Positions 1,686 to 60,156 of a stretch of DNA of 64,000 nucleotides are shown one piece after another. Below the pieces are notes generated by a model. The model worked only from the letters and a program-made list of their open reading frames with translations. It was not told the origin of the DNA and ran no database searches. The translations under genes and the position numbers were made by a program. This DNA comes from Okamejei kenojei (Eukaryota). Numbering within the stretch: position 1 is the stretch's first letter; every line of letters begins with the position of its first letter. The stretch is from contig CM069162.1 in the NCBI GenBank assembly GCA_035221665.1, positions 22,692,001 through 22,756,000 of the forward strand, in the 5' to 3' direction.

Positions 1686-1759
1686 AGTCTGAAGAAGGGC
1701 CTCGACCCGAGACATCCCCAGATGCTGCCTGACCCGCTGAGTTCCTCCAGCACTTTGTG
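1686..1759 (+). mobile_element. Short Penelope-terminus element with degenerate hammerhead motif, interrupted by the larger Penelope insertion
   Basis: CTGAAGAAGGGCCTCGACCCGAGACATC...AGATGCTGCCTGACCCGCTGAGTTCCTCCAGCACTTTGTG matches the 3' terminus of the Penelope copies at 1757-3417 and 33681-34312; its tail (TTTGTGTTTTGC) resumes at about 3419. Confidence 0.75.
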
Positions 1760-3417
1760 CTGGAGAAACTCAACGGGCGCAGCAGCATCTATGGAGAGCA
1801 TCTATGGAGCGAAGGAAATAGGCAACGTTTCGGGCCGAAACCCTTCTTCAGATTGATGTAGGGTGTAGGGGTGGGGGGGGGGGGGGGGGGGGGGAGAAGA
1901 AAGGAGAAAGGAAGAGGAGGAGCCTGAGGGCTGAAGGAGAGCTGGGAAGGGGAGGAGACAGCAAGGGGTACCAGAAATTGGAGAAGTCAATGTTTATGCC
2001 GCTAGGGTGCAAACTGCCCAAGCGGAATATGAGGTGCTGCTCCTCCAATTTCCCCTGGGCCTCCTCCATGGCCAGGGTGGTGCTCACTCTGGCCATGGAG
2101 GAGGCCCAGGACAGAAAGGTCGGATTCGGAATGCGAGGGGGAGTTGAAGTGCTGAGCCACAGGGAGATCAGGTTGGTTAATGCGGACCGAGCGGAGGTGT
2201 TCGGCAAAACGTTTGCCAAGCCTACGCTTGGTCTCACCGATGTAGATCAGCTGACATCTAGAGCAGCGGATGCAATAGATGAGGTTGGAGGAGATGTAGG
2301 TGAACCTCTGTCGCACCTGGAACGACTGCTTGGGTCCTTGAATGGAGTAGAGGGGGGAGGTAAAGTGACAAGTGTAGCATCTCCTGCGGTTGCAAGCAAA
2401 ATTGCCTGGGGAGGGGGTGGTGCGAGAGGGAAGGGAAGAATTGACCAGGGAATCACGGAGGGAGCGGTCTTTGCGGAAAGCAGACGGGGGGGAGATGGGA
2501 AGATGTGGCGAGTGGTGGGGTCACATTTGAGATGACGGAGGACTATTTGTTGTACGTGACGGCTAGTGGGGTGAAAGGTGAGGACTAGGGGGACTCTGCC
2601 CTTGTTACGAGTGGGGGGATGGGGAGAGAGAGCAGTGTTATGGGGTATTGAAGAGACCCTGGTTAGAGCCTCATCTATAGTAGGGGAGGGGAAACCCCGT
2701 TCCCTGAAGAATGAGGACATTTCCGATGCCCTGCTGTGGAACACCTCATCCTGGGAGCAGATGCGGCATAGACGGAGGAATTGGGAGTAGGGAATGGAGT
2801 TCTTACAGGAAGCAGGGTGGGAAGAAGTGTAGTCTAGATAGCCATGGGAGTCAGTGGGTTTATAGTGGATGTTGATCAGAAGTCTATCATCTGCGATGGA
2901 GATAGTGAGGTCAAGAAATGGTAGGGATGTCGGAAATGATCCAGGTGTATTTGAGTGCCGGATGGAAGTTAGTGGTGAAGCGGATGAAGTCAGTCAGTTG
3001 TGTGTGGGTGCAGGAGGTAGCACCAAAGCAATTGTCGATGTAGCGGAGGTAGAGGTCGGAGATGGGGCCCTGGCACGCCTCGAACAAGGGTTGTTCGATG
3101 TACACTACAAAGGGGCAGGCATAGCTGGGGCCCATGCACCTGCCCATAGCTGCACCTTGTATTTGGAGGAAATGGGAGTAGTCAAACGAGAAGTTATTAA
3201 GGGTAAGGACCAGCTCCACTAGGCGGAGGAGAGTATCTGTAGACGGGGATTGGTTGGTTCTCCTGTTGAGGAAGAACCGGAGGGCTTTGAGACCCTCCTG
3301 GTGGGGGATAGAGGTGTAGAGTGGACGTCCATGGTGAAGATGAGGGGATGTGGGCCTAGAGAATGGAATGCCCGGAGAGGACAGAGAGTGTCTGAGGTGT
3401 CTTGAACATAGGTAAGG
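1757..3417 (-). mobile_element. Penelope-like retroelement, 5'-truncated and frameshifted (RT + GIY-YIG endonuclease + 3' UTR)
   Basis: Minus-strand ORF pieces encode RT motifs (QIQGAAMGRCMGPSYA, YLRYIDN), the linker RVPLVLTFHP and GIY-YIG (LIYCIRCSRCQLIYIGETKRRLGKRFAEHLR...VAQHFN), followed by a C-rich 3' UTR and the conserved terminus. Confidence 0.93.
1821..1854 (-). ncRNA. Putative minimal type I hammerhead ribozyme in the Penelope 3' region
   Basis: Minus strand reads CUGAAGA-A-GGGU-UUCG-GCCC-GAAA-CGUU-GCC: both conserved core boxes, a 4-bp stem II and a palindromic AACGUU stem III; stem I pairing is weak in this copy. Confidence 0.55.
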
Positions 3418-4720
3418 TTTTGTGTTTTGCAGTGTGACTAACTACTTGAATCATATACTACCTTACCTCCTAATAAAGAACTACCTGGCGGGCACTCAGA
3501 CTCTGCGGTAAATCTTGCTTGCACGAGGTAATTTAGTGGTTGGGGAGATTGATGTTGAACTAGCAAATATTTTTGTGCATTTGGGCGTCATTTGACGCAA
3601 CTTAACCCCTTGGTGTATAAGTGAAATAACTAAATTAATAAAATTTGGTATTGGACAATCAGACACACTACCCTGTACCAGTTAGATTTTTTAATTAATT
3701 ATGAGGCTCGGGATATAAAGTGGTATACCTGCTAGGCCTTGGCTCTGTTCTCAGCTAGGACTTTCTTAGTAACTGCGATCACAGAAGCAAGAGTACTGGT
3801 AAGTTTATAATATTTGCCTCAGCTCAACAAATGAAATTGACAAGGAGCATTTTAAGAATGAAAAAGGAAAATGGTATAGTAAGAAAGAAAACAAATCCAT
3901 TTGCAGGTATAAAGAAATAAAGGAGGTACAGACCTTTAAAGGGATAGTAGACAGATGGGGAAGGAATATGAATATAAGATGGGGGAGGTCAGTCTACCAG
4001 CCGTATTTAGTGAATAGAGGGGGAAATGCAAGCAGAAAACAAAAGCTGACAGGCAGCCTTCAACCCCAGCCTAACAAGAGTGTATGCATGAAAGATCAAG
4101 CCTATTCAGAGTTTTGAAGGGAAATCTCTGGAGGACCACCTGAAAGATTTGGAGAGGACATTATCTGCAGCTGGGATTTGAATTTAAAAAAACAGTTTAG
4201 AAAGAAATGCCTAAATTAGGAGTGAGAACAAGAGGATTACAGTTCATTGATGCACAGCTACTTTAGGGATGTGTTTACATATACCAGAAATGACATTTGC
4301 AAATGTCTTGGGCAAGATTTTTAAAGCAAAAATAAACAAGATATTTTTCTAATTCATCTGTGAGGGTTAAGTGACTACCTGGAACAACAGAATGGTATTT
4401 ATTTTTTATCTTTGTTATTTGGTGTTTAAAAGGACCCATGCAACAATTTTGAAAAACGAGACAGCTACCATACATATGAATTATTTCAAGAAGGGGATTT
4501 TTTGACTTTCCAGAAAATTTAGATCAAAATATGAGATTTGGATAAACTTTGTGGATGTTTTTAAAGGACTGAAAATTGCCAACAAGTCTTCACCGGGATG
4601 TGTATGTTTAAAAGAAACTTCTGGTTATGGAGAACACATTTGAGTTTTCCAGATGTCTTTTTGCAGCTATTAAATATTAGATCACGGTCATTCCTGTTGC
4701 ATTAACTTATAACGTGGATT

Positions 4721-9841: not shown

Positions 9842-10210
9842 GAGACACAAGGAACTGCACATGCTGGAATCTCAAGCAAAAAACACAAAGTGCTGGAGTA
9901 GCTCAGTAAGTCAGGCAGCATCTCTAGAGAACATGGATAGATGATATTTTGGGTCAGGACCCTTCTTCAGCCTGATTGTAGGAGGTGCAAAAAAGCTGGA
10001 AGAGTGCTGGCTGCAAGACAAAATCACCACTCTGCTGTTGGAGATAGATCCGTGTCTTCTGTGTCCTTTAGTTGTGCTCTCACTCTTCCCCCTGACAGAA
10101 TGGAACGGAACAATGGTAGAATTCTCCTGGTCCTTATCTTTCACCCTACCAGCTATCTCCACAACTCTATGGTTCACTCATCCATTCCCAGCCAAACCAA
10201 CTCTTAGCCA
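9842..10210. mobile_element. Rearranged Penelope remnant: minus-strand terminus joined to a plus-strand coding fragment
   Basis: 9842-10030 is the reverse complement of the Penelope terminus; about 10070-10200 encodes GRILLVLIFHPTS, like RVPLVLTFHPTS in the 1757-3417 copy. Confidence 0.75.
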
Positions 10211-18700: not shown

Positions 18701-21700
18701 CTTTGCTGCAGCATCCTTTCAGTGGCAACTGTCCTGCAGTGGGAAGAGTGTTGATGTGTTGTGGTATATCTCTGTATATTGTTTCGGGTCAGGTAGGGAC
18801 CTACTAGCCTACATGCTTGCAGATGACAAAAGCTGTTCTGTGAAGTTCATAATTGCAGTTATTTTTATGTTGCTTTTATAAACCTGGTGCCAGAGTAAGC
18901 CACAATGCTGTTTTAATGTTAAAAAACAGGCAAATAATAATTTTGAGCCAATTGTCTTTAAACATGTCCATGAAGATTAGTTCAGTTGAATGAAGCACTG
19001 TAAGATTACTGAAATGGGGAAGGGGTGGTTGGGGTCCAGATGCAAGTATACTGCAGGAATGAAGACAGACTTGCTATTGTAGAGACATTTTGTTGAAGAA
19101 AGTGGTATACTATTCCACCAACAACTTACTATTTTGGCAGTGTTATCTGTGGTTCTTTCATCTGCCAAACCACTGATCAGATTTAATACCGTCATATTCA
19201 AGATGGGACAGTATATTTGTTGTTAAAACTAGATTGTATGAATCTTTTAGTGTCGAATGGTTTTCTCTTGATTTGAAGTTGAGTTGTTAAGTAAGCAATC
19301 AATTGTTTTTAAACTTCTGTTTGTTTTTTCTTATTTGGAAAGAATAAAAAATTAAAATTGAAACAGTATTAATACTGAATTCTCCAATTGTATGTAACCC
19401 CCTAACAACCCCCCCCCCCTTTTATTTTTCCCCCACAACCCCCTCTCTTTCCTCCCTCTCCCCCTATCCTTTCCAGGGCCCCACCGGGACTCCCACCTGA
19501 TTCTCCCCTCCAACCCTTCTCCATACCACTATTTTCCTCCCCCTGGCGACACAATCCGCAATTCTTCAACCTGTTTCACACCTATTGTTCTTATCTCTGG
19601 CCTTTGTTCCAACCATTTAATTGATGGGAATGCAAGGTGATACATTTGTGATCTTTGGGAATTGAATCTAATTGGTTGTATTAGGAGTACATATTCTGAT
19701 GTAACACTTGAACTGGATTAAATTTTTTGATGTCTTCCATTGTTGCCTTGTAACTAGGTAACAAATGTTTACTCAGTTTTTGCAAACGCCTGCAGAACTT
19801 TGCAAACCATGGCACTCTGCACCCCTTAATCTCAGCCTGAACAGATTACTTTGAAATACTGGCAGCTTATCCAGGAGTAGTTTTTAAAACACCTAATTGA
19901 AAATTGTCATGAGGAATTCATCATGAGGAATTAATGTTTTGTTGGGAAATGCAGCAAATTTTACTTATTGTCAGAGTGTTGTAGTGTGGTTGGAGCTAGC
20001 CATGAAAAAGTGGAAAATAAAACTGCTGAATGGTTATACGATAAATTGTTTGGTCCAGATGCACCCAGAACAGGTTATTCTGGGCTTGGATTGCTGTTGT
20101 ATGCTGAATTACCTGATCATGTAGTCATTTATGGCAAAGAAGGCATCTATACCGCCAAAAAAGAGCTGTTGAGCAAATCTCACTTTCCAGCTCTTGTACT
20201 TGTTTCATGGCTGCCCCTACCATTCCTTAGGTGAAAGCAAAATTGCTCAATGTCCCCTTCTAAATTTTTTGTGCCCTCGTTAAGTAATAGATCTCAGCTG
20301 GTACTATGAGATGACAAAGAGGGCAGATTATGACAGCCCTCCGTGACTGCAGAATAACATTGGGCATAGTGGGCACCTTGCCACCACTTAGACCATCATC
20401 CTTGGTTTCAAGTTGAATAGCTAAAGACTTGCTTCTTTTTCCACAGATGTTGCCTGACCGGCTGAGAATCTCCAGCAATTTTTGTTTTTAATCCAGTTCC
20501 AAGTGTTGTTGAAGACAGGTTTTCGCTTACCTAAGCAAAAACAGCTGGAGGAAGCCAACCTGATGCATCGATTATCCCCTGGCTTCCACCAATGCTGCCT
20601 GACCTGCTGCTGTCTGGCAGTTTCCTGTACCAGATTACTGCTTGTGCAATCTCTTTTGCCCCTGTTTAGCTAAAAATGGTCCAACCTTTTACACAGCTCA
20701 TCATGGGTCACTTTTGAAACCTCACTGGAAAGTTGGGCAGTGTACAAATGGGCTGTGATTGTGCTCGAACACAAAGGAGAAACTTAGGGAAGTGTGTTTT
20801 GAAACAAAATTTTGGTCAATCGATTGTTTTCATGTTAAATAATTTGATATAATATTTATTGTACTTATTTTAATAAGTATTGCATTTGTTCATCTTGGGG
20901 GGTGGAATAGAGTAGGATGTTGATTGTGTTGGAGGTAAACAAGAGGATGTAGAAACTCTTCTGTTTACCAGATGTGATGAGTAAAATGGCAGAAAACCAT
21001 TTGAGCAAGGAATTTACTGCTGGGCTTAGGCGGATTTATAGTGACCCTGATAGAAGCCTTTGTAGAAGTGGTAGAGCAGTGTGGGGGAGGGAACTGGTGA
21101 AGAATGAAAGATAACACATTCAGATTTTGTGGCGGTTTTATGAAAAACCCAGGGAGCTTAGCTGTTGGGTCCCTTTGATTTATTAGCCATACTACAGGGG
21201 CTGTTAGCCAGATCTCCCTTCATTTAACTCTGTTCTGCCTCTGTTTAGGATAAAGTAAAATAAAAATATTGTTATGTTATTTGTCCAATGGTTGTCGTGA
21301 CGGTATCCCGTGTTGATTTTGTCACATTCGAATTCTGATTTAATTATCAAAAATATCATCGAAAAAGAGAAAGGAAGTAGACGTAAAGTCTAGTATGGCT
21401 GTAGTAAAAAAATGTTTTGACAACTTGCATTTACAAGTTCAAGTTTAACACTAACTGGTGTAAAGACTACTTTTTTGAAAGTGAAAACAACTTTAGGTTG
21501 TCAATACAAACACCAGTGTTGGTAAGTTTATAGAACTAATTAGATTTAAAAAGTATATCTTAAACAGGAATCAGAGTAAAGACTTTGTCTACCTCAGAAT
21601 GAGATTTGATATAAGGCAGGTTAGTATAAGAAAGATTCCTAACAGCACTATACAATGCAAACGGCTGTGGATTTAAAACCGGTTTCGCCCCCTTGATGAC

Positions 21701-25832: not shown

Positions 25833-26335
25833 ACCAGACTGATTTCTGGGATGACCAGACTGATTCCTGGGATGGCACGACTTCCATATGAAGAAAGACT
25901 GGATAGACTCGGCTTGTACTTGCTGGAATTTAGAAGATTGAGGGGCGATCTCATAGAGACTTACAAAATTCTTAAGGGGTTGGACAGGCTAGATGCAGGA
26001 AGATTGTTCCCGATGTTGGGGAAGTCCAGGACAAGGGGTCACAGTTTAAGGATAAGGGGGAAGTCTTTTAGGACCGAGATGAGAAAATTGTTTTTCACAC
26101 AGAGAGTGGTGAATCTGTGGAATTCTCTGCCACAGAAGGTAGTTGAGGCCAGTTCGTTGGCCATATTTAAGAGGGAGTTGGATGTGGCCCTTGTGGCTGA
26201 AGGGATCAGGGGATATGGAGAGAAGGCAGGTACAGGATACTGAGTTGGATGATCAGCCATGATCATATTGAATGGCGGTGTAGGCTCGAAGGGCCAAATG
26301 GCCTGCTCCTGCACCTAATTTCTATGTTTCTATGT
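25833..26335 (+). mobile_element. Young CR1 (HER1-like) LINE 3' end
   Basis: ORF encodes TRLIPGMARLPYEERLDRLGLY...RRLRGDLIETYKIL...TRGHSLRI...FFTQRVVNLWNSLP; ends in a TTTCTATG-type repeat tail; 21-bp tandem duplication at the 5' junction. Confidence 0.95.
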
Positions 26336-27850: not shown

Positions 27851-28035
27851 GTAGACACAAAGAACTGCAGATGCTGGTTGAAAAAAGATATAGTGCAGGA
27901 GTAACTCAATGGGTCAGGCAGCATCTCTGGAGAACATGGATAGGTGATGTTTTGGGCGGGAATCTTCCTGAAAAACCACCCAGACATGATCTCCAGGAAT
28001 GCTATCTGACCCACTGAATTATTCCAGCACTTTTT
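27851..28035. mobile_element. Head-to-head pair of Penelope termini
   Basis: Minus-oriented terminus (GAACTGCAGATGCTGG...GGGTCAGGCAGCATCTCTGGAG) followed by a plus-oriented one (CTCCAGGAATGCTATCTGACCCACTGAATTATTCCAGCAC). Confidence 0.75.
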
Positions 28036-28273
28036 ATAGAAACATAGAAATTAGGTGCAGGAGCAGGCCATTCGGCCCTTCGAGCCTGCACCGCCATTCA
28101 ATATGATCATGGCTGATCATCCAACTCAGTATCCTGTACCTGCCTTCTCTCCATACCCCCTGATCCCTTCAGCCACAAGGGCCACATCCAACTCCCTCTT
28201 AAATATGGCCAACGAACTGGCCTCAACTACCTTCTGTGGCAGAGAATTCCACAGATTCACCATTCTCTGTGAA
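28036..28273 (-). mobile_element. Young CR1 LINE 3' end, inverted near-identical partner of 26098-26333
   Basis: By manual alignment, the reverse complement differs from the plus copy at 4 positions in about 236 bp. Confidence 0.95.
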
Positions 28274-33680: not shown

Positions 33681-34312
33681 GATTTACTGTATTCGTTGTT
33701 CAAGATGTGGATTGTTATACATCGGTGAGACCAACCGTAGACTGGCCGATCGTTTCGCTGAACACCTTCGCTCAGTCTGCCTGGATCTACCTGATCTCCT
33801 GATTACCAAATACTTTAATTCCCCTTGCCATTCCCACACTGACCTTTCTGGCCTAGGCCTCCTCCATTGTCAGAGTGAGGCTAATCACAGATTGGAAGAA
33901 CAGCATCTTGTATTTCGCTTGGGCAACTTACAACCCAGCGGTAACAATATTGATTTTTCTAACTTCAAGTAAACCCTGCATTCACTCTCCCCTCCTCCCC
34001 CCCCCCCCCCCCCCCAACACACCAGTCACACCAGGTACGCACAGATCGCACCAGGTTCTCATTCTCACCTAGCAAACAGCTAACAATGGCCTGTTTCCTT
34101 TATCATCGTTACTTTTTTGCATATCTTTCATTCATTTGTTCTATATCACTGCCTATATCTCTTGTTTCCCTTTCTCCTGACTACTCTAAAGAAGGATCTC
34201 GACCCGAAACATCACCCATTCCATCTCTCCAGAGATGCTGCCTGAACCCCTGAGTTACTCCAGCATTTTGTGTCTATCTTTGGTTTAAACCAGCATCTAC
34301 AGTTCCTTCCTA
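33681..34312 (+). mobile_element. Penelope-like element 3' part (GIY-YIG C-terminus, 3' UTR, terminus)
   Basis: IYCIRCSRCGLLYIGETNRRLADRFAEHLRSV...RLEEQHLVFRLGNLQPSGNNIDFSNFK*, poly-C UTR, degenerate hammerhead at about 34186-34215. Confidence 0.92.
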
Positions 34313-35141: not shown

Positions 35142-35240
35142 GAAATAGACACAAAAAGCTGGAGTAACTCAGCGGGACAGGCAGCATCTCTGGATAGAAG
35201 GAATGGGTGACGTTTCGGGTCGAGACCCTTCTTCAGACCT
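35142..35240 (-). mobile_element. Short Penelope-terminus element
   Basis: Reverse complement reads GGTCTGAAGAAGGGTCTCGACCCGAAACGTCACCCATTCC...AGATGCTGCCTGTCCCGCTGAGTTACTCCAGC. Confidence 0.85.
35205..35239 (-). ncRNA. Putative minimal type I hammerhead ribozyme (best-preserved copy)
   Basis: GGU-CUGAAGA-A-GGGU-CUCG-ACCC-GAAA-C-GUC/ACC: 3-bp stem I (GGU/ACC), 4-bp stem II, palindromic ACGU stem III, GUC triplet with predicted cut between 35209 and 35208. Confidence 0.7.
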
Positions 35241-35944: not shown

Positions 35945-36828
35945 AGGAAGACGCAAGAAACTAGAAGACGCAAAATGCTGAATTCTTGAGTAAACAAAAC
36001 AAAGGGCTAGAGGAACTCAGTGGGTCAGGCATCATCAGTGGAGGGAAATGGGCAGACAGAGTTTCGGGTTGGAATCCTTTTTCATGATCAGAGTGGAGGG
36101 GTGATAGCTGGTAGAAAAAGGTGATGGGAAGGAGTGGGGCAAGAGCTGCAAGTCATCGCATGCGATAATCACCAATCATGTGTCCGCCAGGGCCAGCTGG
36201 AGCTCCCAGTTGCCAACCACTTCAATTTGCTTTCCCTCACCAATCTGTCTGACCTCTGCCTCTTCTATTACCGGCGTGAGATCACACGCAAACTGGACGA
36301 ACAGCACCTCAGATTCCACTTGTGTAGCCTATAACTCTCCTGATCTATCCAGGCATCTCATGCACACCTCCACCCATTGTTCAGCACCCACCCCTGCCCT
36401 CTCAGCTCCTCTATTTCTCCCTCCCTCCTATTCGCGTCTACTCACCATGCCTCCCTCTTGTTCTATATTTCACTTGCAGGAAAGGTTTTCAGTATACCTG
36501 TACCTCATTGTACTTGTGCATCTGACAATAAACTTGACTACTTGATTTTTCTTTCTTATCAAATTCCACTTCAACAGCCCTTGAATCTTCTCCATTTATC
36601 ACCTCTAGCTTTTGTGATGATCTTCACTCTCCTGTTCACTCCCTGACACATCTGCTAATCACCCCTCACCTCTTTCTAGCAGCTATCTTATTTGTACTCC
36701 AATCTTGATGAAGGAATCTCACTTTAAACATCGTCCATTTCCTTTCTCAGATGTTGCCTGACACACTGAGTTTCTCCAGTTTTTTTTTTGCACTGGATTC
36801 CCAGATCAGCAGTCTCTCGTGTCTCCAT
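35945..36828. mobile_element. Older Penelope element with inverted 5' terminus (minus 35945-36150, plus about 36170-36828)
   Basis: Encodes ELPVANHFN...RKLDEQHLRFHL; terminus copies face outward at both ends; a Rex1-like tail is embedded at about 36480-36545. Confidence 0.75.
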
Positions 36829-39800
36829 TTCACTGCTGAAAATTATTATGTTTTCCTCACCAGTGCCTCTATCTCTAAACTATTGGCGGGTGTCCATGCC
36901 CTTTCAATGTGACCTTGCCTGGAAATAGAACAGAGGAATTTTCAAACTGGATGCCCGTTGTGTGCTCTGTACAGGCCTCCCTTTGCTTCAGATTTGCATG
37001 GATGAAGTGCCTTTGCCCTAGGGTAATAAAACTGGAAAGAAAAAAAAAAGTAGTTATGTAAAAACATTTGTAATTAAAACTTGTTTTTCCAGTCTCTTAT
37101 CATTGTTTATGTCCACTGGAGTCTACTCCTTGAAGTTGCATTTTCAGAAGCCTCCTTTTGCAATTAAAGTAATTGTTCACTGAAGATTTTTATCTGTGTG
37201 GTATTGGGGTATTGTGTGGGGTTGTGGATTTTGCATAAAGGTTATGTGGAAAAGCTGAACAGAAAGAACTGGTAGACTGAAGTCCCATACAACCATTACG
37301 CAATAAGATTCTGCAATAATTGTGGTTCTTAATACATCCCAATGACTATAGAGCTAGAAATGCTGCATAATGTTTACCAAACTTTCCAAAAATGACCTTT
37401 TACAACAGTAAAGAACATTTTATTTAGGAATGAAAGTAGAAATTATGCAGTGACTCTCAGTGTACTAAGGTGCAGTTAATCCCACTGTGATGTGATCATT
37501 CTATATGAATTCTGTATATTTAATTTCACTTGACAATGTTTCTCCCTCAGTTATACTGTGCTTATTTTTAAAAATTGAAATGTTAACCCTGTAGATTTTC
37601 TACAATTCAATTTATTAATCTCATGTTAATCCTACTGCACTTTATTCCACATACTTTAATTATTATCCAGCCTCATTTTAGCAAGATGTTCTAGCAATGG
37701 CATACAACTGACACCCTTTAAAGTGCTGTGTCGCCATATTGTGCATTCTGTTGATGAAACAGATGGTTTGCCTTCAGCTGGGCCATGTTCTGAACAAGCA
37801 GGCATTGGGCAGGAGAAAGAAAGGCAGACGACTTAAAACAGGATAGGTGATAGGAAGGTGTTGCTTCCACTGCGCAGTCCAACCTGGCTGCCACCTGCTT
37901 CTGAAGCTGGAATCGATGCCTGCTATTGTTTTTCCTTCTGCTGTCTACTTGGCCTCCAACAGGTATGGGACAAGGGCAAAACAATGATTTATTTGAGCAT
38001 AAAGGATGCAGAAAGTGGAGTGTTGGCAGGTGATAGTGCAAGTTAAATATTGTACTTTTAAGGAAAACGTGTCTTATACAAATGACACTGTGTCTGGCAG
38101 TACCCCCTTAAAAAGAACTTTTGGTCATTTGAGTTATTTCTCAATAGGGTTATTTCTCTGATTGTATATTGAGGGCATGTGAGATCTTAAATCAGAAGAA
38201 CAGCAGTTTTAGCAATTGATCTAAACATGAAATACATCCTTTAAGTGAACTTTTTTTACAATGAGCTTCGATGTTTCTTTCCATACTTAAGTTTCTCAAT
38301 TTCTCAATTTATTTTCCCTCCTTTAATTTGTCTCCTCAAAAACCGGCTCCTATGATCTTTTCCAAAACCCCCTCAGGTGATTTGGTTTGATAACTTGGTT
38401 GCCAGTCTCCTGTGAAATGCCTTGGAATGTTTTGCTTTGTTGGAGGCAATACTTGTAGATTGTTCTTGTAGTTAGGTTCCCTTTGAGAGTGTAAGACCCA
38501 ACATGCGGTCACTGCACATTCATGAGCTGTCCTCTTGAGATGATGTTGGTGAGTGGATTAATCAAGGGGAGACTATGGGGAAAACGGGAGGTGAGGAGAA
38601 GGTAACAGTGCATGCGTCTTACCAGTGCAACAATGTGGGCTGATTAAAACCCAATGCTACTGTGCCCCCAAACTTTGCGATCCCCAATCAAGGAAATTGG
38701 AGCAGGAATAGGTCACCAAGCCCTTGGAGCATGCCCCATCTTTCGATCTGATTTGTGCTGGCCTCAAATTCTGTTCAGGCTGATGGACCAAGCGGTCAGC
38801 TGATCACAGACTCTTCTGTCCTTGCGGGAGGCTTCTGCCAGCGATTTTGTTCCTGATTAAATTTTTACTAGCCACTTTAATTTTAAACATGTAAAAATGA
38901 CATCCCTGGGGAAACATTTTAATTCACGAATATTTCACTAGTTTTGGCATGATGTATATTGTTTTCTGGCAAATTGTTTGGGAAGATCATAAGTCATGAC
39001 CTTTTAATTCAATTTTTGCTGTTGAATAATAAAACAAGATGTCAGCACAAGAGGAAATGTGATGAGGAAATAAAAGCACCACAAGGATGAATCGTTACAG
39101 GAAGTGGCTGATCCACATTTTTCAATGAGAACTTCAACAGAAAATGGGTGTAAATGCTTGAAAATGGGCACAAAACGGTTTTCATGTGCAACTTGCATGC
39201 AAATGAAGGGACAACTGGGTCCATTTATTTAGGCATATATGAGGGGATTTGTTTTCTCTTAGAGCAGCTTTCTAATAATTCTAAGGAAGTGGTTAGTAGC
39301 TACTTGATAAGCAAGCTGTGAAAGGGTGCTGAGGTAGACAGTAATGCAGAATTGAGGATTTGGTCACACCAACACATCATAATAAATGACAAATATGATG
39401 GACTGAGTGGCCTAATATATATATATTCACATCGCAAATGCTGCTTGACCCGCTGAATTCCTTAGCAGCTCATTCTTTACTTCATACCAAGTTTGCCTCT
39501 TGGTGCTCAAGCACATGGAGTACGAGGCATAGGCTGAAGAGTTGGTGAGTCTTGTCCAGGCAGGAATTACAATGGCTTAATTTGGCCTAATTGGGAAGAG
39601 AGAATTTGTTTGGATTTCCACTCTTTGTTAATTATTGTTTGAATGCTGGGCCTACATATCAGATCAGGCTTGGATGTGAGGATCGGAATAGATGTAAATC
39701 TATAATAATGTGTACTGAAGGACCTTATTGTTACCTTTCACCTGGCAAAACTGCTTGATGGTCTCTGGTGGTAATCAGGGAGATATCCATTGCAGGCCCA

Positions 39801-45712: not shown

Positions 45713-46301
45713 CAGCATGATGTTTCCCTGGTGCCAAGGCCGCGCATCTCCTGTCATCCCTGTGTATGTAGTGTTCATTTCTGTTTTTAGCCAAGTGAAT
45801 TGGAACTCCAGCACATAAAGAGCAAGGCAACCTTTTCACAACCTTTTCATCTCCTGTGGGCTCAGGACAATTGTAGGTGTTCTATATTTAGAGTGTTACC
45901 CATAACTAGACACAACTGAACTGTACATACCTTTTGTTATCTGAATGTGTGGACCACCCCCTGAGTCAATCTGTGTGTGAGGTTAGCCTATTGAATGGAA
46001 GTGGCTGCCATATTCCAGAGAGTGAGTTCAGTGTGGAACAGTGAACAGTTATCGTTTGTGCTCACATTTATCTGTAAATGGATTTATTCAAATTAATGCT
46101 ATCAGCAATTTAGTTAAAAATCTTTTTGGATCAACCCATTATAATGGCCAACGTAGATTATGAAAAAGGTAATGTTTTATGGTTAATTTTATTACAAATT
46201 AGACAACATTTCAACGTTTTTTTTCAGAAATCTAAAAATAGATCAGATTGACAATAGAGAACAGTTAAATTATTTTTTATTTCAAAAGAAAGTTGATTTA
46301 T

Positions 46302-46427
46302 AGAAACACGGAACTGCAGATGCTGGTTTACACAAAAGGACACAAAGTGCTCAAATAACTCAGTGAGTCAATCAGCATCTCTGGAGAACATGGATAGGTG
46401 ACATTTTGGGTCGGTACCCTTCTTCAG
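46302..46427 (-). mobile_element. Short Penelope-terminus element starting at the CUGAAGA box
   Basis: Minus strand CTGAAGAAGGGTACCGACCCAAAATGTCACC...; possible decayed TSD AGTTGATTTAT/AGTTAACTTAT. Confidence 0.8.
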
Positions 46428-49720: not shown

Positions 49721-50230
49721 CTCTACAGGAAGTGATTGGCAGCACTGAATACTGATTTCCACCACTCACTGCCAGCTGAATGTTGAGGCACTGCCAGCAG
49801 AGAATGAGGTTGACGGGCATTCTCTTCAATGGATGTAAGTGCAGTTAGTGGCATTCCAGCATCTTGAGAAGCTTGCAGTCCTCTCTGATTCCTGTGCTTG
49901 CTCTGCTGCTTGTTTGTGGCAAGGAATGATAAAAAGTTGTCAGCTCTCTCTGAATAGAGAGTCTCAGTGATATATTTAAGGGGGGGACATTTGATGCAGC
50001 ATTGAGCACCAAAATGGCTTCCCTGCCGATGTCCTCTGATGGGTGATTTGCACACTATGGAAGCTACACGTGAATGATGTTGCTGTGTGCCCTTATTTAC
50101 ATATTTGACAATTTTCCACCTGTAACCGTGTTAGCATGTCACAAATACAGTTTAAGACCCTACGTTCATTCCTGGCGCCAAAGAAAATATGGAAGACCAA
50201 GTCTCAGTTTGACCTGTAGAGCTCTTATAA

Positions 50231-50326
50231 CTGAAGAAGGGTCTCGACCTGAAATGTCACCCATTCCTTCGCTCCAAATACGCTGCCTGTCCCGCTGAGT
50301 TATTCCAGCAGTTTGTGTCTACCTCC
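50231..50326 (+). mobile_element. Penelope-terminus micro-element with 14-bp TSD
   Basis: GAGCTCTTATAACT at 50219-50232 and 50327-50340; the insert begins at the CTGAAGA box. Confidence 0.9.
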
Positions 50327-51443
50327 GAGCTCTTATAACTTTTCGCTATCTTAATTCTTGAGTTTTCTTTCCCATTTACGAAAAACAAATCTGCCAGTTG
50401 AAATAAAATGTGACCTTTAGGAAAATAAATACAACAAAAGTAAATGTTTTAGAATATATTTGCACAAATGTCATGATGAATGTTTAAAGTTCACGGTGAG
50501 TTCCGTGCTTAAAGCAAGCATATTGTGCAGCTTTACAGTGTGGTGTGATTTTGCAAGCTTCCCTGCGCTGTGTGGAATGAAAGTATAGACAATTATTACT
50601 AACGTGACTAATTAAAAGATCTGTTAACTTCCATCCCTTTATCTTAAGGAATGACAATGATGGAACTGTGGTCTCCTTCAGCTATTCCTCTGCAACACTA
50701 AATTATACATCAGAAAAAATGATGTTGGAAAGAATTAATCTTCAATTTAATTTTATTTACTTTTGCCCTAGTTTTTTCAATTATATCGAATGTGATGACA
50801 TTTTTGTCTGGTGTATTTTAATACTGTCTAGCCCCCTCACAACATTGGAGCTGTGTATATTGTGCATGGCAGTTTCCCGGTGACAACATCACTGCATTGT
50901 TTAAAAACTCAAATATTCTAAACCGCATCGATACAACAAACTCTTTCACCTGATTGATCTTTAAATGTTGGCAAGACTCCCTTCCTAAAAGCAGAAAGCT
51001 TATTGTGTGCAGTTGTTTGGTTAGTACAAGCTGGCAGAGATAAATCTTAACCGAAGTAGCATAAACATTTTAACAGGAGTAATCCTTACATACAGTGAGT
51101 GCCCTCCATAATGTTTGGGCCAAAGACCCATCATTTATTTATTTGCCTCTGTACTCCACAATTTGAGATTTCTAATAGAAAAAAATCAGATGTGGTTAAA
51201 GTGCACATTGTCAGATTTTATTAAAAGGTATTTTTATACATTTTGGTTTCAACATGTAGACATACAGCAGTGTTTATACATAGTTTCCCCATTTCAGGGC
51301 ACCATAATGTTTGGGACACATAGCTTCACAGATGTTTGTAATTGCTCAGGTGTGTTTAAATGCCTCCTTAATGCAGGTATAAGAGAGCTCTCAGCACCTA
51401 GTCTTTCCATCACCTTTGGAAACTTTTATTGCTATTTATTAAC

Positions 51444-52749: not shown

Positions 52750-53334
52750 ACATGACTACGTTCATTTACATGACATTGCTGTGTCCCAAACATTATGGTG
52801 CTCTGAAATGGGGGTACTATATATAAACACTGCTGTAATTTCTACATGGTGAAACCAAAATGTATAAAAATTGACTTTATTAAAATCTGACAATGTGCAC
52901 TTTAACCACATGTGATTTTTTACTATTACAAATCTCAAATTGCGGAGTACAGAGGCAAAAAAATAAATGATGGGTCTTTGTCCCAAACATTATGGAGGGC
53001 ACTGTATGTCTACAGTGCAAAGAACTGATGTCCTCTGTTGTGTTAGTCATAAAATATTTAAGCTCTGAGATATGTCTCTTGGAATTTAAAAATAATCCAG
53101 GACAGATGCATTAAATGATTTCTGTAACCAAGTATGTACCTTTAAAATTGCTCCTGCTCAAACATTTATGAGTTGGTGGTGTACAAGGTAAGCACGTGAG
53201 TGGGTGGTTAGGGGAGTGTGCGATGTTGAAATGTGCTGACAGCTGAGCTAGTGGAAGCTTCTTCATGAGGTGGACTCCTAGTGCATTCACTGGTGATCAA
53301 AAAGATCCAGAAGTCAAACACTAGATTAAAAAAA

Positions 53335-53660
53335 ACATGCTGGAACTAATCAGCGGGTCAGGTAGCATTTGTGGAGAGAGAGTTAACTTTTTAGGTTGAG
53401 ATCTTTATGTTTTGATCAAGATTTCAGCATCTGCAATTCTTTGTGGCTCCATATTACAGCTGTGTTTTATATCGTCGCGATGATCTGTCATGATCAAGCA
53501 AAAATAAACTGCTGGAGGAAGTCACAGGGTCAAGCAGCATCTGTGGAGGTAGAACGCACTTTCTTGATGCAGGTCTTGTCCTTAAATGCCAAATGTCCAT
53601 TTTTCTCCACAGATACTGTCTGACCCATTGAGTTCCTCCAGTTTATTTGTCTTCTGCAGC
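53335..53660. mobile_element. Two adjacent degenerate head-to-head Penelope-terminus pairs
   Basis: Inverted arms AAATAAACTGCTGGAGGAA...GGGTCAAGCAGCATCTGTGGAG and CTCCACAGATACTGTCTGACCC...TTCCTCCAGTTTATTT; a similar remnant lies at 53335-53450. Confidence 0.65.
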
Positions 53661-54223
53661 TTCCAGTGACTCCAGAATTAGATATCACGTCTGTCTTACT
53701 CGTGATGAGCAAGCTGAAAATCCACCACTGGAAACAGTTGATTTTGGCTAATCTTAATATGTATAGTCTTTTCTTTGACTTGTTAGCATGCAAACAAAAA
53801 CCTTTTCACTGTACCTCGGTATACATGACAATAATAAACTAACCTAAACTGATGACATTTCTTAACAAATATGACATTATTGGTATTGGTTTATTATTGT
53901 CATGTGTGATAATGTTGGAAGAATGCCACACTACTGGGTTAGCAGTGGCAACGTGCTGGAACCACTTGAGAATATGCTTCTGTATGAAACTGTACCTCTT
54001 TAGACAGTAGTCAGCCCAGATTCAGTACAACTAAAGACGGGAGTAAAGCCCATGTTCAGTTTGCTGTGTGCCCTCCATGATAACACAATGCTTGGGGTGA
54101 TTCCAAAGGGCTGCGTGAAGAGGATTAGGATGGCTGCACTGTACCACTTTCTGTCCTTGCTCCGGCCTGAGTTTGAGATTTCAAGCCTCTGCTTGGCAGA
54201 GCCAGCTCACGTGGACATTTTGT

Positions 54224-54326
54224 TTAAGAAGGGACAACAGATGCTTGAAAATCAAAGGTAGACAAAAGTGCTGGAGAAACTCAGCAGTTGCGGCAGCATC
54301 TATGGAGCGAAGGAAATAGGCAACGT
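54224..54326 (-). mobile_element. Penelope-terminus micro-element with 12-bp TSD
   Basis: TGGACATTTTGT at 54212-54223 and 54327-54338; the insert matches the terminus subtype of the 1757-3417 element (GCAGCATCTATGGAGCGAAGGAAATAGGCAACGT). Confidence 0.9.
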
Positions 54327-55861
54327 TGGACATTTTGTAAGTTTTCCACGACTGTTACAGGCTGTCAGTATAACTCTTGGGATCCTAAAACAAAAGAAGA
54401 TTTTGTGGCCTGGAAGATGAGCATGTTTTAATTTGCAATGTTAAAATTTAATCTCATAGAAAACTTAAGCAATTCTTGCAGAAAAACGCATTGCTATCGT
54501 CAATATATTTCCAATCAAATATGGTACAATTAATGTTCAAAATTTACACCTAGGAGGCTGTTGGACCTCAGGAATTTGGTTAGATGGGAGTGGCATTGTA
54601 CAGTATCCTCCGAGCAGGTCTGCATTGTCTTACCACGCCTATGTAATTCTCCTGAACCTTGCAATGCATTGTTGAGAACAAACACCTGGTTACAAATAGT
54701 TCATTCTGCTGGAAGATCAATGTCTCCAGTGACTCTGACAGACTGCAGAGTCACTTTCACTGAGTGAGTCTTCTGGAAGCCGGTGATTCTATACTTCCAG
54801 TTTAAAAGTTGAGCAATGGCCATCATGCTGTGACCTTGGTTCACAGCCCTGATGCTAATGGAGCTGCAGACTGTGTTGATGCCTGTGCTATATGCCACAC
54901 CTCTGCAAAGCTGCTGCCGCCACTCAGAGCAACTACTACTTTCCTACTTTTCCTGGACCTGCATGGGAGGTGCTCTCTCAATTATCAGTCAATGAAGCTA
55001 CAGGCCAGTTACAAAGCCACTTTGCAATGGGTGCACTCCACCCTTGCATGGGTGCTTTCAGTAGGACTGGGATTGTTCCACATCCAAATTAGATTCTTTC
55101 CTGGATACAGTGATCGGCACACTGATTTGCAAGCACTGGAGGCAAGCTGGCCTGAGGCATTCAAACATGGGCATTTTAAAGTGGAGATTCTGGATGAGGT
55201 GGCTCTTTGTACCTGCACGGATTAAACGACTCTTACAAACACCACAAACAGGAGGGAGTGGCTTCAGCAAATATGCTGCTGAGAGCCAGCCCATAAAGAC
55301 CCTACCAATGTAACTGCTTTGGAATGACTGCCTGCTTTATGTCGAAGCCACATAAAATGGTTTAACTGCAGCCTTTTGTTTTACTTAACTATTTCTGTTT
55401 TAAAGCATAACTTTATGCAATGTACCCAAGCATGGTTTGAATGCCCGGGAATGGTTATCTATTTAAACTTGATTGTATATGGGGTTTCTTTTCTTGGGAC
55501 ATGGGATACTGTCTAGCTATATTGCTGTAATAAATCTCACTAGGACTTTTTTCACCTGGTGTAGTACCATCGTTTAATCACAAGCTGCATGGGCTCCATC
55601 TGAGACACACGCAATTAATGTTCTGCATTAGATTTCAAAATGCGCAAATAGCTCGTTTAAAACAATATTATTTGTGGAGGGGAAATTGGGTTATGGAGAT
55701 ATCAATATTGCAAACAAATTTATTTTCTATACTATTTTTAATAATGGCAGTTAAAATGAAATATAAACTTCAGCGTGCCTGATCTACAAACTGCGCTGTT
55801 GCTTACTGAACTGGTGCTGATGTTGGGAGCAAGAGCTCCCATTGCCACCATTGTCAAATTG

Positions 55862-55941
55862 GGTCTGAAGCGTCACCCATTCGTTCTCTCCAGAGATGCT
55901 GCCTGTCCTGCTGAATTATACCAGCATTTTGTGTTTCCAAA
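55862..55941 (+). mobile_element. Penelope-terminus micro-element with 10-bp TSD, hammerhead stem II deleted
   Basis: TGTCAAATTG at 55852-55861 and 55942-55951; insert GGTCTGAAG-CGTCACCCATTC... Confidence 0.88.
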
Positions 55942-56024
55942 TGTCAAATTGTCAGGCAATTTCCGCTCTCCTAATTTCAAGTTCCAATCTGGATTTGTGT
56001 ATCCCATGTTTGCAGCCAATCTTT

Positions 56025-56182
56025 GATTTGAACTTTTCATACATTTCATTAATTTATCCTTTGTACCTCTAGTTTCCCTCTCCCCCAAGTCTCAGTCCGA
56101 AGTAGTCCACCCGAAGCATCACCTATTTCTTTTCTCCAGAGATGCTGCCTGTCCCGCTGAGTTACTCCAGCACTTTGTGTCA
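56025..56182 (+). mobile_element. Penelope 3' UTR and terminus fragment
   Basis: Similar to 34110-34275. Confidence 0.75.
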
Positions 56183-56489: not shown

Positions 56490-56710
56490 TGGCCTTTGTT
56501 CCAACTGTCTGCCTATCATAAATTCTCCACACCTATGTTGACCTATTATCTGCCATGCTTCGTCCTGCCTCTCCTCTTTTCCAGCTTTCTTCTCCCCCGC
56601 TATAATCAGTCTGAAGAAGGGTATCGACCCGAAACATCTCCTATTCATGTTCTCCAGAGATGCTGCCTGCCCTGCTGAGTTACTCCAGCACTTTGTGTTC
56701 TTTTGTGACT
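56490..56710 (+). mobile_element. Penelope 3' UTR and terminus fragment with near-intact hammerhead core
   Basis: CAGTCTGAAGAAGGGTATCGACCCGAAACATC at about 56607-56638, followed by the AGATGCTG...CCAGCAC terminus. Confidence 0.8.
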
Positions 56711-59110
56711 ATGTACATATACTTGGAATTCATCCGTTCTATGGCTCCCATTGAAAACTGGACTGGCGCCATCATCTTTGCTGTCTGACCAGTGGAATTC
56801 ATCAGCTGGCAATGGGAGTTGTGATATTTTGGTACTGTCCCACCAATTAGGGATTGAAGTTCATTATCACCTTTGATAATAATTTTGCTGAAGGTCTTTT
56901 TGAAGTGGTTAAAGTGTTCAACAGATCAGAAAATGGCCCTTTTTACACCAGACTTAGAATTATTTCAGTTAGATTAGCTTTTAGGAGACTTTGCAATATC
57001 GCAATATGTTCTCATGTTAAATACAATTGTGTGGGCATTTCTTCCCGCCCCCCCCCTCCCCCCACCCCCGAAGGAATGTTTGGCTAAGCCATTGGGAATG
57101 ACTGTTAGCAATGGCCTCTTTTTAATATAGACTGGATGAGGGGGAGGGATGGGGAGGTTGTGGGAAGGAATTACAAAAAAGTGTTTGTGTTATTTTTGCA
57201 ATGCAGCAGGAGTTCTTTCAGGATTTAAAAGAACAAAGTTCTTTTCAAGCTCAGTGAGCTGGCAATCTTAGGGCAGTTCCTTTTATATATTGCTCAAAAA
57301 AAATCCCAAATCATCTGCTACTGGGCGATGTGCACTATTTGTCTGGCTACACTTTGGCCCAGACCCACTGTTATGTCGGTTGCTATGGTGAGAAACATTT
57401 CAAGTGCCAGATTAAGAAAGAAACTGAACTGAAATGGGCAGAAATATGATCTGTGTTCGAGGGTGTGAATCAGAACACTACTTCAGGATTGGGTTGGCTG
57501 TATTAAACACTTTCTTTTCACCCCCACCACCACAAAAATAAAGTATTGACTGACACCTTCCTGTTCCTTTCAACCAGAATTCAGGTTTCAGACCTTTATA
57601 GGGTCTGTTTACAGATCAGTCAAAAAAGCAGCTGTACATTCAAAGCGGGTTTCATATCGGAATGTGTGTTTTCCTGCCTGCCTGCCGGCCTCGGGCATTG
57701 CCAAGTGTTGGCTGTTACAGTGGTTGTGTTTGCTCAACACATCTCAGACAGGCTGGCAATATGATAGTCTGACAGCATGAAAGCATTACACTCAGTTTGA
57801 CCTAATAAGGACGTAAAAGTTTAAGAAGGAAAATAAAAGCTGCCTTCAGTTGGATAGTGCTCTTTCATTTTTAAAGATAGGAAAAGAGAAAAGCTCAATT
57901 CAAACTTAATTTTGAATTAAAAACCGGGCAAGAGGCCGATTTAATAAAACGGTGTGTATCATGTTGAAGTATTGAACAGTTCTTAATGGCATTGCCAATA
58001 ATATTTCAGAGAGTTTTAGATGATTAACAAAAAATTGTGCTATTTAAATATTGCAGTCACATTCTAACTAAGATACATGTTGTAAAATTATGTAATAATG
58101 AATTGCATTGTATGATTCCTACTGATCACCTACCATTTGGTTTGCAGTCTTGACAAGAAAACTCACTTGTTTTTATTTCAAGAGAAAGTGTCTCTAAAAA
58201 AATATTTTCTTGCAAAATAAACATAGAAGAATATAAATTGAATCTTTTGCGAGGCGTTTGAAATGTTCAGTATTGCTAGAGGTCTTTCTATTAAGCCTTG
58301 AAAAGTACTATCTCATCCCAAAATAGTTCTGACCCTTTAATCTAGTAACCTTAAGGGACTTGGATATATTTTCAGGTTGGTGTCAATCACCACTTCATTT
58401 AATCCTGATGGCATTGTATATTAAATGCAATTGATAAAGAATTAAAATAAGGCCAAATGCTGTAAATATTGGATATCTGAAAAATGTCAGGTTTCTTTCT
58501 GTCCAGATTAGGCAGCATCTGAGGGCAGTCACACTCTATCCTGACTTGGAAATGTTGCTCTCTTCCAGTGAAAGGGCTATACTCATGTGCTGTGTTCAAT
58601 AAGAACTTCAGCAGCTGGCTGTAGATTTTTTGAAAATGATAAAGATACTTGTGTGTAAAGACCATTTTACTTGAAAAACTAATAGGAATAGCACTGCTAA
58701 GAAATGGACAAAGCGCTATGGTTTATTCACACAGGTTTTTCTTTGATTGTGCATGGTGCCTTTTGGCCTCGTTCAGTAGAATATTACTACTTGGGGCAGC
58801 TCAGCACAAAGTCTTTGAACAATTTGTTTGGACACTGAAGAATTTCTAAGTTTTGATGTCAGTTTGATAAGGAGTTTGGCAGAATTTAATTCGGTTTTTG
58901 AAGAAATTGAAAATGCTTGCATTCATTAATGTGTGTTCTTGGGCATTAATAATAGATTTGAACACTGGATGAAATACCTCCTGTTGATAACTTTCCTGGG
59001 AGAGCAGCCAGCAGTACTGCAGTCCAGTTTGTGTATCATTATACAAGCAAAAGTGTAACTTTCAATCTCTGAGTTGTGGGAAATTTGCAACCTGCAAAAT
59101 GTAAGATGTA

Positions 59111-59236
59111 GACCCTTCTCTCGACCCGAAACGTCGCCTATCTCCTTCGTTCCTTAGATGATGCTGCACCCGCTGAGTTTCTCCAGCCTTTTGTGTACCC
59201 TCAATTCTCCAGCATCTGCAGTTCCTTCTTTAACAC
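59111..59236 (+). mobile_element. Penelope-terminus micro-element with 14-bp TSD and 9-nt 5' inversion
   Basis: AAATGTAAGATGTA at 59097-59110 and 59237-59250; begins GACCCTTCT (reverse complement of AGAAGGGTC), then CTCGACCCGAAACGTCGCC. Confidence 0.9.
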
Positions 59237-60156
59237 AAATGTAAGATGTATCTGCATATATATATTCCTTTTTTAAATGGGAAATGGTAGTATATAGTCC
59301 AAAAAGTCAATCTCAGCTTTGTGATGTACAATGCCTCTGATCTTGACTGTGCTAATGTTTATAATGGGTATATCTCTTGACATTTAGCCATTGAGTGCAT
59401 TTGAAGTACAGTCACTGCTCACAGGACGCTCTGTCCACAGCAGTATACAGATAAGCTATTGAGTAATCCTCCTCCCACTCTCTCGGCCCTTTGTGTGACA
59501 TTAACTGCAGAGTACACGCTTCTTAGTGATTGGATTTTGAAACATGAAAGAACGGAGTCAATTTCCTGGAAAGTGAATTCCGTGAATACTGTGACAGTGC
59601 CATACTCAGAATTGTTGCTTTCTGAGCGACATATATCTCTTTCATACATTAAGGTAAATATGCAGTCCACATTTTTTTTCCTTAGCCAGCAGGCTCCTTC
59701 CAATTAACACCTATAATGGGCTGTCTGAAGTTTGACAATGGACATACAGTCTGCCACTTAAACCCATAGCTAACAAGTGGAACTTTTTTGTTTGTTTCCA
59801 GATATACCCATAAAAACATATTACTCCATCATATCATCCTGAAAATCCGACATTCTTCTTCTAATGTGAGAGTTTAGATAGGCATCTGTTAGCCCACTTT
59901 CACTGTCTGATTCTTTGTAGCATCTCCAAAAGGTCATTGGGGACCAGCCTCTACTTAAGTGCAAAATGGGGAACTCCAAGATGGAGTAGGATGCTTGATT
60001 GGTTCTGCTTCTCTGTGGCTATTAAACCTGTCCATGATACTTCCTTATCAATGAGCCCCACATGTACCATTTTCAGGCAGTGTTGTTCTCCACATGTGCC
60101 CTGCCTGGTACTAACTCTCATTAGAATTTCTCCAGATGTTTCTGTTACTGCTGTAT

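What the first reader, a model, noticed from the sequence alone, without database searches (positions are those of the whole stretch)
1686..59250. Dense family of hammerhead-bounded Penelope micro-elements alongside their RT/GIY-YIG parents
Seen: more than a dozen copies of one 80-130 bp terminus. It ends the Penelope-like elements (1757-3417, 33681-34312) and also occurs alone. Four solo copies have clean 10-14 bp TSDs (50219, 54212, 55852, 59097), so they inserted at this size and are not deletion remnants. Their 5' ends, and those at 1686, 35240 and 46427, all fall within the about 35-nt hammerhead motif. Established: Penelope-like elements carry minimal type I hammerheads, and non-autonomous retrozymes exist in other taxa. 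Inference: either a ribozyme-delimited, SINE-like unit without a Pol III promoter mobilised in trans by Penelope, or a strong RT stop or template-switch point at the ribozyme fold. I cannot tell whether this has been described in elasmobranchs.
Basis: partly seen in the sequence, partly recalled or inferred. Interest (0 to 1): 0.78.

Follow-up and report, generated by a model that had tools for sequence, protein, structure and literature searches.

The report
Fixed-start Penelope retroelement end stubs
These short repeats are separately inserted 90-135-base end pieces of a known kind of jumping gene (a Penelope-like element) in a cartilaginous fish, and about half of them begin within a few bases of the front edge of its ribozyme-like motif rather than at its predicted cut site, likely because the copied RNA ends there.

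Summary
The window has 22 copies of the terminus, all four cited TSDs are real, and evenly spaced genome samples imply about 1.2 million copies. The 5' ends are not smooth truncation. In a young subfamily 34 of 75 copies stop within 8 nt before the hammerhead core, a rate 25-70 times background. The peak is at the motif's front edge (AG|TCTGAAG), about 30 nt upstream of the predicted cut site, where only 1 of 96 copies starts. The SINE reading is not supported: short and long copies share the same variants, tail frequency and TSDs. In full-length tandem units the same segment is the leader before the ORF, and some stubs carry extra pieces from the ORF start, so the template was likely parent RNA. 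Best reading: reverse transcription starts internally (as shown for the anole element) and runs off an RNA end at the ribozyme's edge. Against this, 0 of 16 youngest long units stop there. The parent is Neptune-type. Solo PLE hammerheads are published; I found no paper on the fixed start. This scan has noted it many times in this and other genomes.

The parts
1673..1683 (+). left TSD (11 bp) of the old solo stub that begins at 1686; partner at 3430-3440
1686..1757 (+). solo stub starting at position -4 (AGTCTGAAG); interrupted near its 3' end by the long element, remainder at about 3418-3429
   Evidence: nesting inferred from the TSD and the split 3' end
1757..3417 (-). 5'-truncated, frameshifted Neptune-type Penelope-like element: part of RT, CX4CxxC linker, GIY-YIG, 3' UTR, hammerhead motif and terminus
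3430..3440 (+). right TSD of the 1686 stub
9842..10004 (-). short copy with tail, reaching about 35 nt upstream of the motif; no clear TSD
20403..20609 (+). two old decayed copies (20403-20489; weak 20548-20609)
27855..28037 (.). head-to-head pair joined inside the motif (minus copy with tail, plus copy)
33681..34312 (+). 5'-truncated Penelope-like element: GIY-YIG end (33682-33972), 3' UTR, hammerhead motif, terminus with tail
35143..35238 (-). solo stub starting at -3; no TSD found
35992..36111 (-). older short copy reaching a little upstream of the motif
36705..36787 (+). old decayed short copy
39435..39470 (+). weak fragment of the terminus (19 bits)
46301..46427 (-). solo stub with tail starting at -1; only an imperfect 12-bp repeat, displaced from the 3' end
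50219..50340 (+). solo stub (50231-50326, starts at -1, no tail) with 14-bp TSD
53329..53642 (.). three old copies: 53329-53406 minus, and a head-to-head pair 53498-53586 minus / 53566-53642 plus
54212..54338 (-). solo stub with tail (54224-54327, starts at about +21, 6 nt before the predicted cut site) with 12-bp TSD
55852..55951 (+). solo stub (55862-55941, starts at about -3, stem II missing) with 10-bp TSD
56060..56181 (+). short copy reaching about 70 nt upstream of the motif
56560..56704 (+). short copy reaching about 120 nt upstream of the motif
59097..59250 (+). young-subfamily solo stub with tail (59111-59236; 9-nt inverted piece, then from about +11) with 14-bp TSD

Best explanation
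The micro-elements are separately inserted copies of the 90-135-nt hammerhead-plus-terminus segment of a Neptune-type Penelope-like element, likely made when the element's reverse transcriptase starts inside the parent RNA's leader and runs off an RNA end that is inferred to lie at the front edge of the hammerhead motif. Shown here: own TSDs; two preferred 3' ends (with and without a roughly 38-nt tail); a sharp 5' boundary at -5 to -1 that trails downstream into the motif; the same segment lies in front of the ORF in full-length tandem units; short and long copies share variants. Taken from PMC11167929 (anole element, in vitro): RT starts at two internal sites that match the tail, both target strands are cut and extended, and ribozyme cleavage is not needed. 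Inferred: the two 3' ends here are those start sites; head-to-head pairs are two such cDNAs; the 5' boundary is a physical RNA end, either a Pol II start at the initiator-like YCAGTC (consensus recalled) or a trimmed, protein-protected end. Long and partial-tandem copies would come from longer read-through RNAs. The stubs would be dead-end products, not a self-renewing family.
For: Peak: 34 of 75 young copies end at 0 to -8 (0.065 per nt vs 0.0009-0.0027 beyond -20). In evenly spaced stretches 42 of 68 at risk end there (0.097 per nt; mode -4). Genome-wide exact counts fall from 23,031 (45-nt core) to 11,119 with 12 more upstream bases, then only to 8,668 with 19 more. Apparent ends at -4, -3 and -2 number 3,580, 4,073 and 1,888. 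The boundary is sequence-fixed, not a ruler: 14 of 35 short copies have the tail and start at the same place. Template is parent leader: in tandem units (period about 3.96 kb) the segment runs on into the ORF start. 4 of 112 short copies carry inverted pieces from +151 to +221, beyond both 3' ends. Of 20 unselected copies holding the ORF start, 15 leave the ORF at +186 to +331, and 13 of those join more element sequence (my reading of the printed junctions). 8 of the 10 that reach the motif stop again at -5 to +5. No short-copy subfamily. TSD >=9 bp in 14 of 24 short and 12 of 23 long non-inverted young copies.
Against: 0 of 16 youngest long units that reach the upstream motif stop there; about 12 of them are independent. 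A start site at -4 should have left some full-length copies ending at -4, so either those come from another RNA class or -4 is not the main promoter. No dominant extra G (cap mark) before AGTC: A 42, G 36, T 22 in the first 100 listed (hand count). The internal-start mechanism was shown for a Poseidon-clade element, not for this one. In D. virilis Penelope the start site lies upstream of an intron that ends at the hammerhead (PMC2377424 passages; PMC4209133), which argues for a start further upstream.
Confidence: 0.6

Rival explanations
1. The RNA continues upstream, but the RT is blocked or released at the front edge of the hammerhead by the fold or by the element's protein bound there, and then joins the target or switches template.
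For: The peak sits at a structured, probably protein-bound motif (the anole hammerhead is protein-assisted, PMC11167929). Stop rates are already raised inside the motif (0.022 per nt at +10 to +1, 0.006 at +30 to +11). 199 of 470 copies have an inverted copy within 450 nt upstream, often joined at the motif.
Against: The RT would have passed stem II before stopping. No stable stem ends at -3, and the region folds no better than shuffles (z 0.04). The identical sequence is read through in 16 of 16 young long units.
Confidence: 0.22
2. The stubs are a self-propagating, SINE-like family: solo copies are transcribed, processed by the ribozyme and re-mobilised in trans.
For: Very high copy number (70 of 96 young-like copies are short), own TSDs and fixed ends. 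Non-LTR retrozymes derived from pLTRs exist, also in one chondrichthyan (bioRxiv 10.64898/2026.07.22.740005).
Against: 5' ends are not at the cut site: 1 of 96 lies within +24 to +30. No variant is enriched in short copies (0 of 65 columns at Fisher p<0.02; concordance p 0.51). Extra pieces come from the parent's ORF start. Copies are dispersed monomers or inverted pairs, not head-to-tail arrays. The test region is only 65 nt, so a small hidden subfamily is not excluded.
Confidence: 0.07
3. The boundary reflects a splice acceptor (pyrimidine tract, CAG|TCTG) at the front edge of helix I, as in D. virilis Penelope, and the stubs are copies of spliced or splice-processed RNA.
For: All subfamilies keep a pyrimidine-rich run and CAG just before TCTGAAG. 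In D. virilis the intron ends at the 5' end of helix I (PMC4209133).
Against: No short copy carries an upstream exon of the element: 5 sense matches in 112, all local duplications or 10-nt chance hits. The 5-mer before 21 candidate donors matches 5 of 116 junctions, all at far-upstream sites. TSDs mostly abut the junction within 0-8 nt. No GT..AG joint to this site among the 15 joints shown (61 not shown).
Confidence: 0.06
4. Ordinary random 5' truncation, with the peak an artefact of subfamilies differing upstream of the conserved motif.
For: Upstream UTRs do differ between subfamilies, and the first all-against-all estimate was blurred by this.
Against: The peak appears with TSD-defined ends that use no reference, within one near-identical subfamily and in genome-wide exact counts.
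Confidence: 0.02

Closest known systems
Minimal type I hammerheads in pLTRs of metazoan PLEs (Cervera and De la Pena 2014, PMC4209133; main text parts 1-2 of 4 read)
   Same: CUGANGA core, one unpaired base before stem II, G10.1-C11.1, palindromic C-G in place of helix III. The paper says most motifs occur as single elements probably related to truncated PLEs, with some opposite-strand pairs.
   Different: Stem II is 5 bp and helix I only 2 bp here. The parts read do not map 5' ends, report TSDs for solos or cover a cartilaginous fish; its supplements were not seen.
EN+ Penelope-like elements, Neptune clade (Craig et al. 2021, PMC8557442; passages read)
   Same: RT followed by GIY-YIG with a CX2-5CxxC linker, partial tandems forming pLTRs, inverted 5' copy, optional 30-40-bp tail, heavy 5' truncation.
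   Different: Truncation is described as frequent, not as peaked at one site. Neptune versus Nematis was not separated by a tree here.
Poseidon element of the green anole, PAc (Frangieh et al. 2024, PMC11167929; main text parts 1-2 of 4 read)
   Same: Two internal RT start sites matching the tail near the ORF start, both target strands extended, hammerhead upstream of the start sites and not needed for insertion.
   Different: Other clade. In PAc the ORF starts inside the hammerhead; here the first ATG in frame lies about 160 nt after it. The parts read do not discuss a fixed 5' stop; its figure S2 could not be seen.
Non-LTR retrozymes (bioRxiv 10.64898/2026.07.22.740005; parts 1-3 of 5 read, supplements closed)
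   Same: Non-coding, hammerhead-bearing, pLTR-related, dependent on PLE enzymes; monomers occur.
   Different: Defined as head-to-tail repeats with a hammerhead in each unit. The copies here are monomers or inverted pairs with no lineage of their own.
Solo and inverted pLTRs of Adineta vaga Penelope (PMC3846280; passages read)
   Same: Inverted pLTR pairs with 8-10-bp TSDs, optional tail, initiator-like motif in the pLTR.
   Different: Several solo pLTRs there lacked TSDs and were put down to recombination or deletion; here solos have TSDs and number in the hundreds of thousands.

Membership tests
EN+ Penelope-like element (parent) | RT followed by C-terminal GIY-YIG endonuclease | tested here: met
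   Pfam GIY-YIG on both window elements; the upstream frame matches proteins carrying RT domain PF00078; the window's RT pieces did not hit Pfam on their own
EN+ Penelope-like element (parent) | tandem or partial-tandem units forming pLTRs | tested here: met
   head-to-tail units of about 3.96 kb, terminus at both ends
EN+ Penelope-like element (parent) | optional 30-40-nt tail and inverted 5' copies | tested here: met
   3' ends bimodal at +84 to +99 and +126 to +136; inverted upstream copy in 199 of 470
Neptune/Nematis clade | CX2-5CxxC motif in the RT-EN linker | tested here: met
   CX4CxxC upstream of the GIY-YIG core in ORF 2002-2520; definition from PMC8557442
Neptune/Nematis clade | placement by RT phylogeny | not tested
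   no named reference RTs were available
Minimal type I hammerhead | core CUGANGA / GAAA / NUH with stem II and palindromic 15.2-16.2 | tested here: met
   49 of 89 motif-complete copies keep a 5-bp stem II; commonest form in 18; no Rfam match
Minimal type I hammerhead | helix I of 4-5 bp (2 bp in D. virilis) | tested here: inconclusive
   2 contiguous pairs in the 3 representatives located correctly; the script stopped after 5 of 8
Minimal type I hammerhead | self-cleavage | not testable with these tools
   needs an assay; genomic 5' ends do not mark the cut site
Non-LTR retrozyme | head-to-tail repeats with a hammerhead in each unit | tested here: not met
   of 470 sampled copies 218 had no neighbour, 199 an inverted upstream one, 71 a direct upstream neighbour within 450 nt (38 of them also inverted); no regular array in the window
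Non-LTR retrozyme | circular RNA | not testable with these tools
   only assembled contigs available
SINE-like non-autonomous family | own lineage with diagnostic changes, apart from the autonomous parent | tested here: not met
   short and long copies interleaved; power limited by a 65-nt region
SINE-like non-autonomous family | fixed ends and own TSDs | tested here: met

The most novel reading that the evidence does not exclude
The element's transcript begins inside helix I of its hammerhead, so the motif marks the RNA's start rather than acting as a cutter there. The RT makes a short run-off cDNA of the leader, like retroviral strong-stop DNA, inserts it alone in about half of all events, and often re-primes near the ORF start. 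A million stubs would then be a fossil map of the PLE replication intermediate.
Probability: 0.3. Interest if true: 0.7.

Novelty: new member of a known kind. Interest (0 to 1): 0.45.

Why it matters
How Penelope-like elements copy themselves, and what their hammerhead does, is still open. This genome holds tens of thousands of near-identical young insertions whose ends can be read to the base. They say that insertion uses uncut RNA and that copying stops at one site in front of the ribozyme motif, a prediction that 5' RACE or an in vitro reaction can test directly. It also shows that PLE stubs can reach SINE-like density (about one per 2.2 kb) without being a SINE, which matters for repeat annotation in sharks and rays.

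Tried and rejected
Rfam scan: no hammerhead family at E<=5; 6 weak miRNA, snoRNA and lncRNA hits taken as chance. All-against-all 5' mapping overshot the boundary by several bases and was replaced by TSD-based and subfamily-matched mapping. Ribozyme cleavage as the 5' boundary: rejected, 1 of 96 near +27. Cap-G signature: not clear. Upstream exon spliced to the AG: not found. Fold-back on the short CAG-T-CTG palindrome: too weak to be stable (inference), and the predicted fold does not support a stem there. Strong-stop plus a jump with the same chance at every pass: disfavoured by 0 of 16 in young long units. RNA evidence: 24 runs listed, all contigs; 4 laid, no starts or ends reported, RNA status a guess; uninformative. 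A tree was built but not read, since 65 columns carry too little signal; the nearest-neighbour test was used. Print searches (listings only unless named) found no paper on PLE stubs in elasmobranchs or on a fixed 5' stop. PMC5499810 and 10.1101/2025.06.08.657570 contain no 'Penelope' or 'hammerhead' in the main text. Dfam and Repbase were not available, and subscription journals are largely missing, so a prior entry is quite possible.
Full report
Numbering: position 0 is the T of TGAAG in the hammerhead core CTGAAGA; the predicted cut falls before +27.

Observation. A profile of the terminus finds 22 hits in the window. It ends two 5'-truncated elements whose frames hit Pfam GIY-YIG. The frame upstream matches shark and ray proteins, several with an RT domain. 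A CX4CxxC motif before the endonuclease marks the Neptune/Nematis type as defined in PMC8557442 (passages). The four cited TSDs are exact. A fifth (11 bp) shows that the 1686 copy is a solo into whose 3' end the long element inserted (nesting inferred). Rfam has no match. The motif fits the published minimal hammerhead: 49 of 89 motif-complete sampled copies keep a 5-bp stem II, and helix I is only 2 bp.

Abundance. In 120 evenly spaced 10-kb stretches (1.1985 Mb without N) there are 538 hits, about one per 2.2 kb, or roughly 1.2 million genome-wide by extrapolation. Of 470 copies, 199 have an inverted copy within 450 nt upstream.

The 5' peak is real. Without any reference, 39 of 207 solo copies have a flanking repeat of score >=10 (14.6 expected). 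16 of these put the 5' end in a 20-nt window at the motif's front edge (0.6 expected). In a young subfamily I examined 75 copies with an exact 45-nt core, taken in chromosome order from the first 7 Mb of one contig. 34 end at 0 to -8, a rate of 0.065 per nt against 0.0009-0.0027 beyond -20. Among 96 sampled copies at least 90% like an endonuclease-linked copy (older copies were left out), the mode is -4. 42 of 68 at risk end at 0 to -8, 28 end inside the motif or just past it (+1 to +30), and 1 lies within +24 to +30. Whole-genome exact counts agree: 23,031, then 11,119 with 12 upstream bases, then 8,668 with 31. With a 30-nt core, apparent ends at -4, -3 and -2 number 3,580, 4,073 and 1,888; these include some point mutants of long copies. 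The 3' ends are bimodal, about 38 nt apart. TSDs are mostly 9-16 bp.

Not a separate family. Short and long young copies share the same variants and similar divergence, and the tail is present in 14 of 35 and 11 of 40. All five motif-defined subfamilies hold both short and endonuclease-linked copies. Nearest-neighbour label concordance is 0.606 against 0.602+-0.056 shuffled, and no column of 65 separates the groups. The region is short, so power is limited.

Where the segment sits in the parent. Full-length young units occur head to tail with a period of about 3.96 kb. There the segment continues about 30 nt past the tail into the ORF start. It is thus both the 3' end of insertions and the leader of the next unit. 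Only 723 exact copies of the ORF start exist. Among 112 short copies (a set enriched and holding some duplicates), 34 have inverted element sequence at the junction against 7 of 111 controls, and 4 of these pieces come from +151 to +221. Among the first 20 ORF-start copies listed, 15 leave the ORF at +186 to +331. 13 of those join further element sequence (my reading), and 8 of the 10 that reach the motif stop at -5 to +5. I infer that the template ran into the ORF start and that copying re-primes there and stops again at the same place.

Result against the simplest version. Among the 30 best matches to an N-terminal ORF piece, 16 reach the upstream motif and none stops there. Four share one junction and two are tandem neighbours, so about 12 are independent. 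The stop therefore depends on the template class, not on local sequence alone. That argues against an intrinsic roadblock, but also against a start site at -4 being the source of full-length copies. There is no clear cap mark, no spliced exon and no usable RNA data.

Mechanism. For the anole element, RT starts at two internal sites matching the tail, needs the first part of the ORF, extends both target strands and uses uncut RNA (PMC11167929, parts 1-2 of 4; supplements searched without hits, figures not held). Applied here by inference: starting at one of two sites 90 or 128 nt into the leader, the RT copies to the RNA's end at the motif's edge and the short cDNA is sealed in with a TSD. Priming on both strands gives head-to-head pairs, and longer read-through RNAs give long copies. 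I put this at 0.6, a protein or fold roadblock at 0.22, a self-propagating SINE at 0.07, a splice-related end at 0.06 and an artefact at 0.02. Whether the RNA end is a start site (the initiator consensus is recalled, not from a call) or a trimmed end is unresolved.

What is known. Solo minimal hammerheads from truncated PLEs are published (PMC4209133, parts 1-2 of 4). Tails, inverted copies and partial tandems are standard (PMC8557442, PMC3846280, PMC2377424; passages). Retrozymes derived from pLTRs are tandem arrays (bioRxiv 10.64898/2026.07.22.740005, parts 1-3 of 5; its closed supplements list chondrichthyan families that may overlap). Eight searches showed no paper on the fixed start or on these stubs in elasmobranchs; Dfam and Repbase were not checked. 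Earlier notes of this scan report the same peak in this genome and others. I had reached the reading before seeing them, and they are not independent support.

Verdict. A real and very abundant product of a known class, with one sharp mechanistic footprint that can be tested. Interest 0.45.

Noticed in passing
window 26098-28271: 236-nt inverted arms, 98% complementary, 1.7 kb apart: looks like a young DNA-transposon-type element; a head-to-head stub pair lies just inside its right arm
   Followed up: no
window 51098-53003: inverted arms of 166 + 58 nt around a frame that looks like a Tc1/mariner transposase remnant (family name recalled)
   Followed up: no
window 14316-14764: a further endonuclease-region fragment of the Penelope-like element (matches 2083-2341 and 33844-33922) with no terminus hit nearby
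   Followed up: no
window 25785-26243, 40684-41638, 62738-63898: LINE remnants of CR1/L2 type (names recalled)
   Followed up: no
window 1757 and 3417: the long element sits inside an older stub near that stub's 3' end; insertion into the element's own terminus may be preferred
   Followed up: partly
L285, L287, L291, L299, L300, L057: the same composite (inverted tail plus stub, same 10-bp TSD and flank) at several loci: likely a passenger inside another repeat that amplified later; L272, L275, L277 are a second such set
   Followed up: no
young long copies (L254, L232, L251, L266, L202): 5 of 40 longer copies end at -240 to -266, near the ORF stop codon: a possible second, weaker boundary
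   Followed up: no
L178 about +150 to +165 from the motif: a splice-donor-like AAG|GTATG overlaps the ORF's first ATG; with the acceptor-like site at the motif it could bound a small exon or circle; no support found
   Followed up: partly
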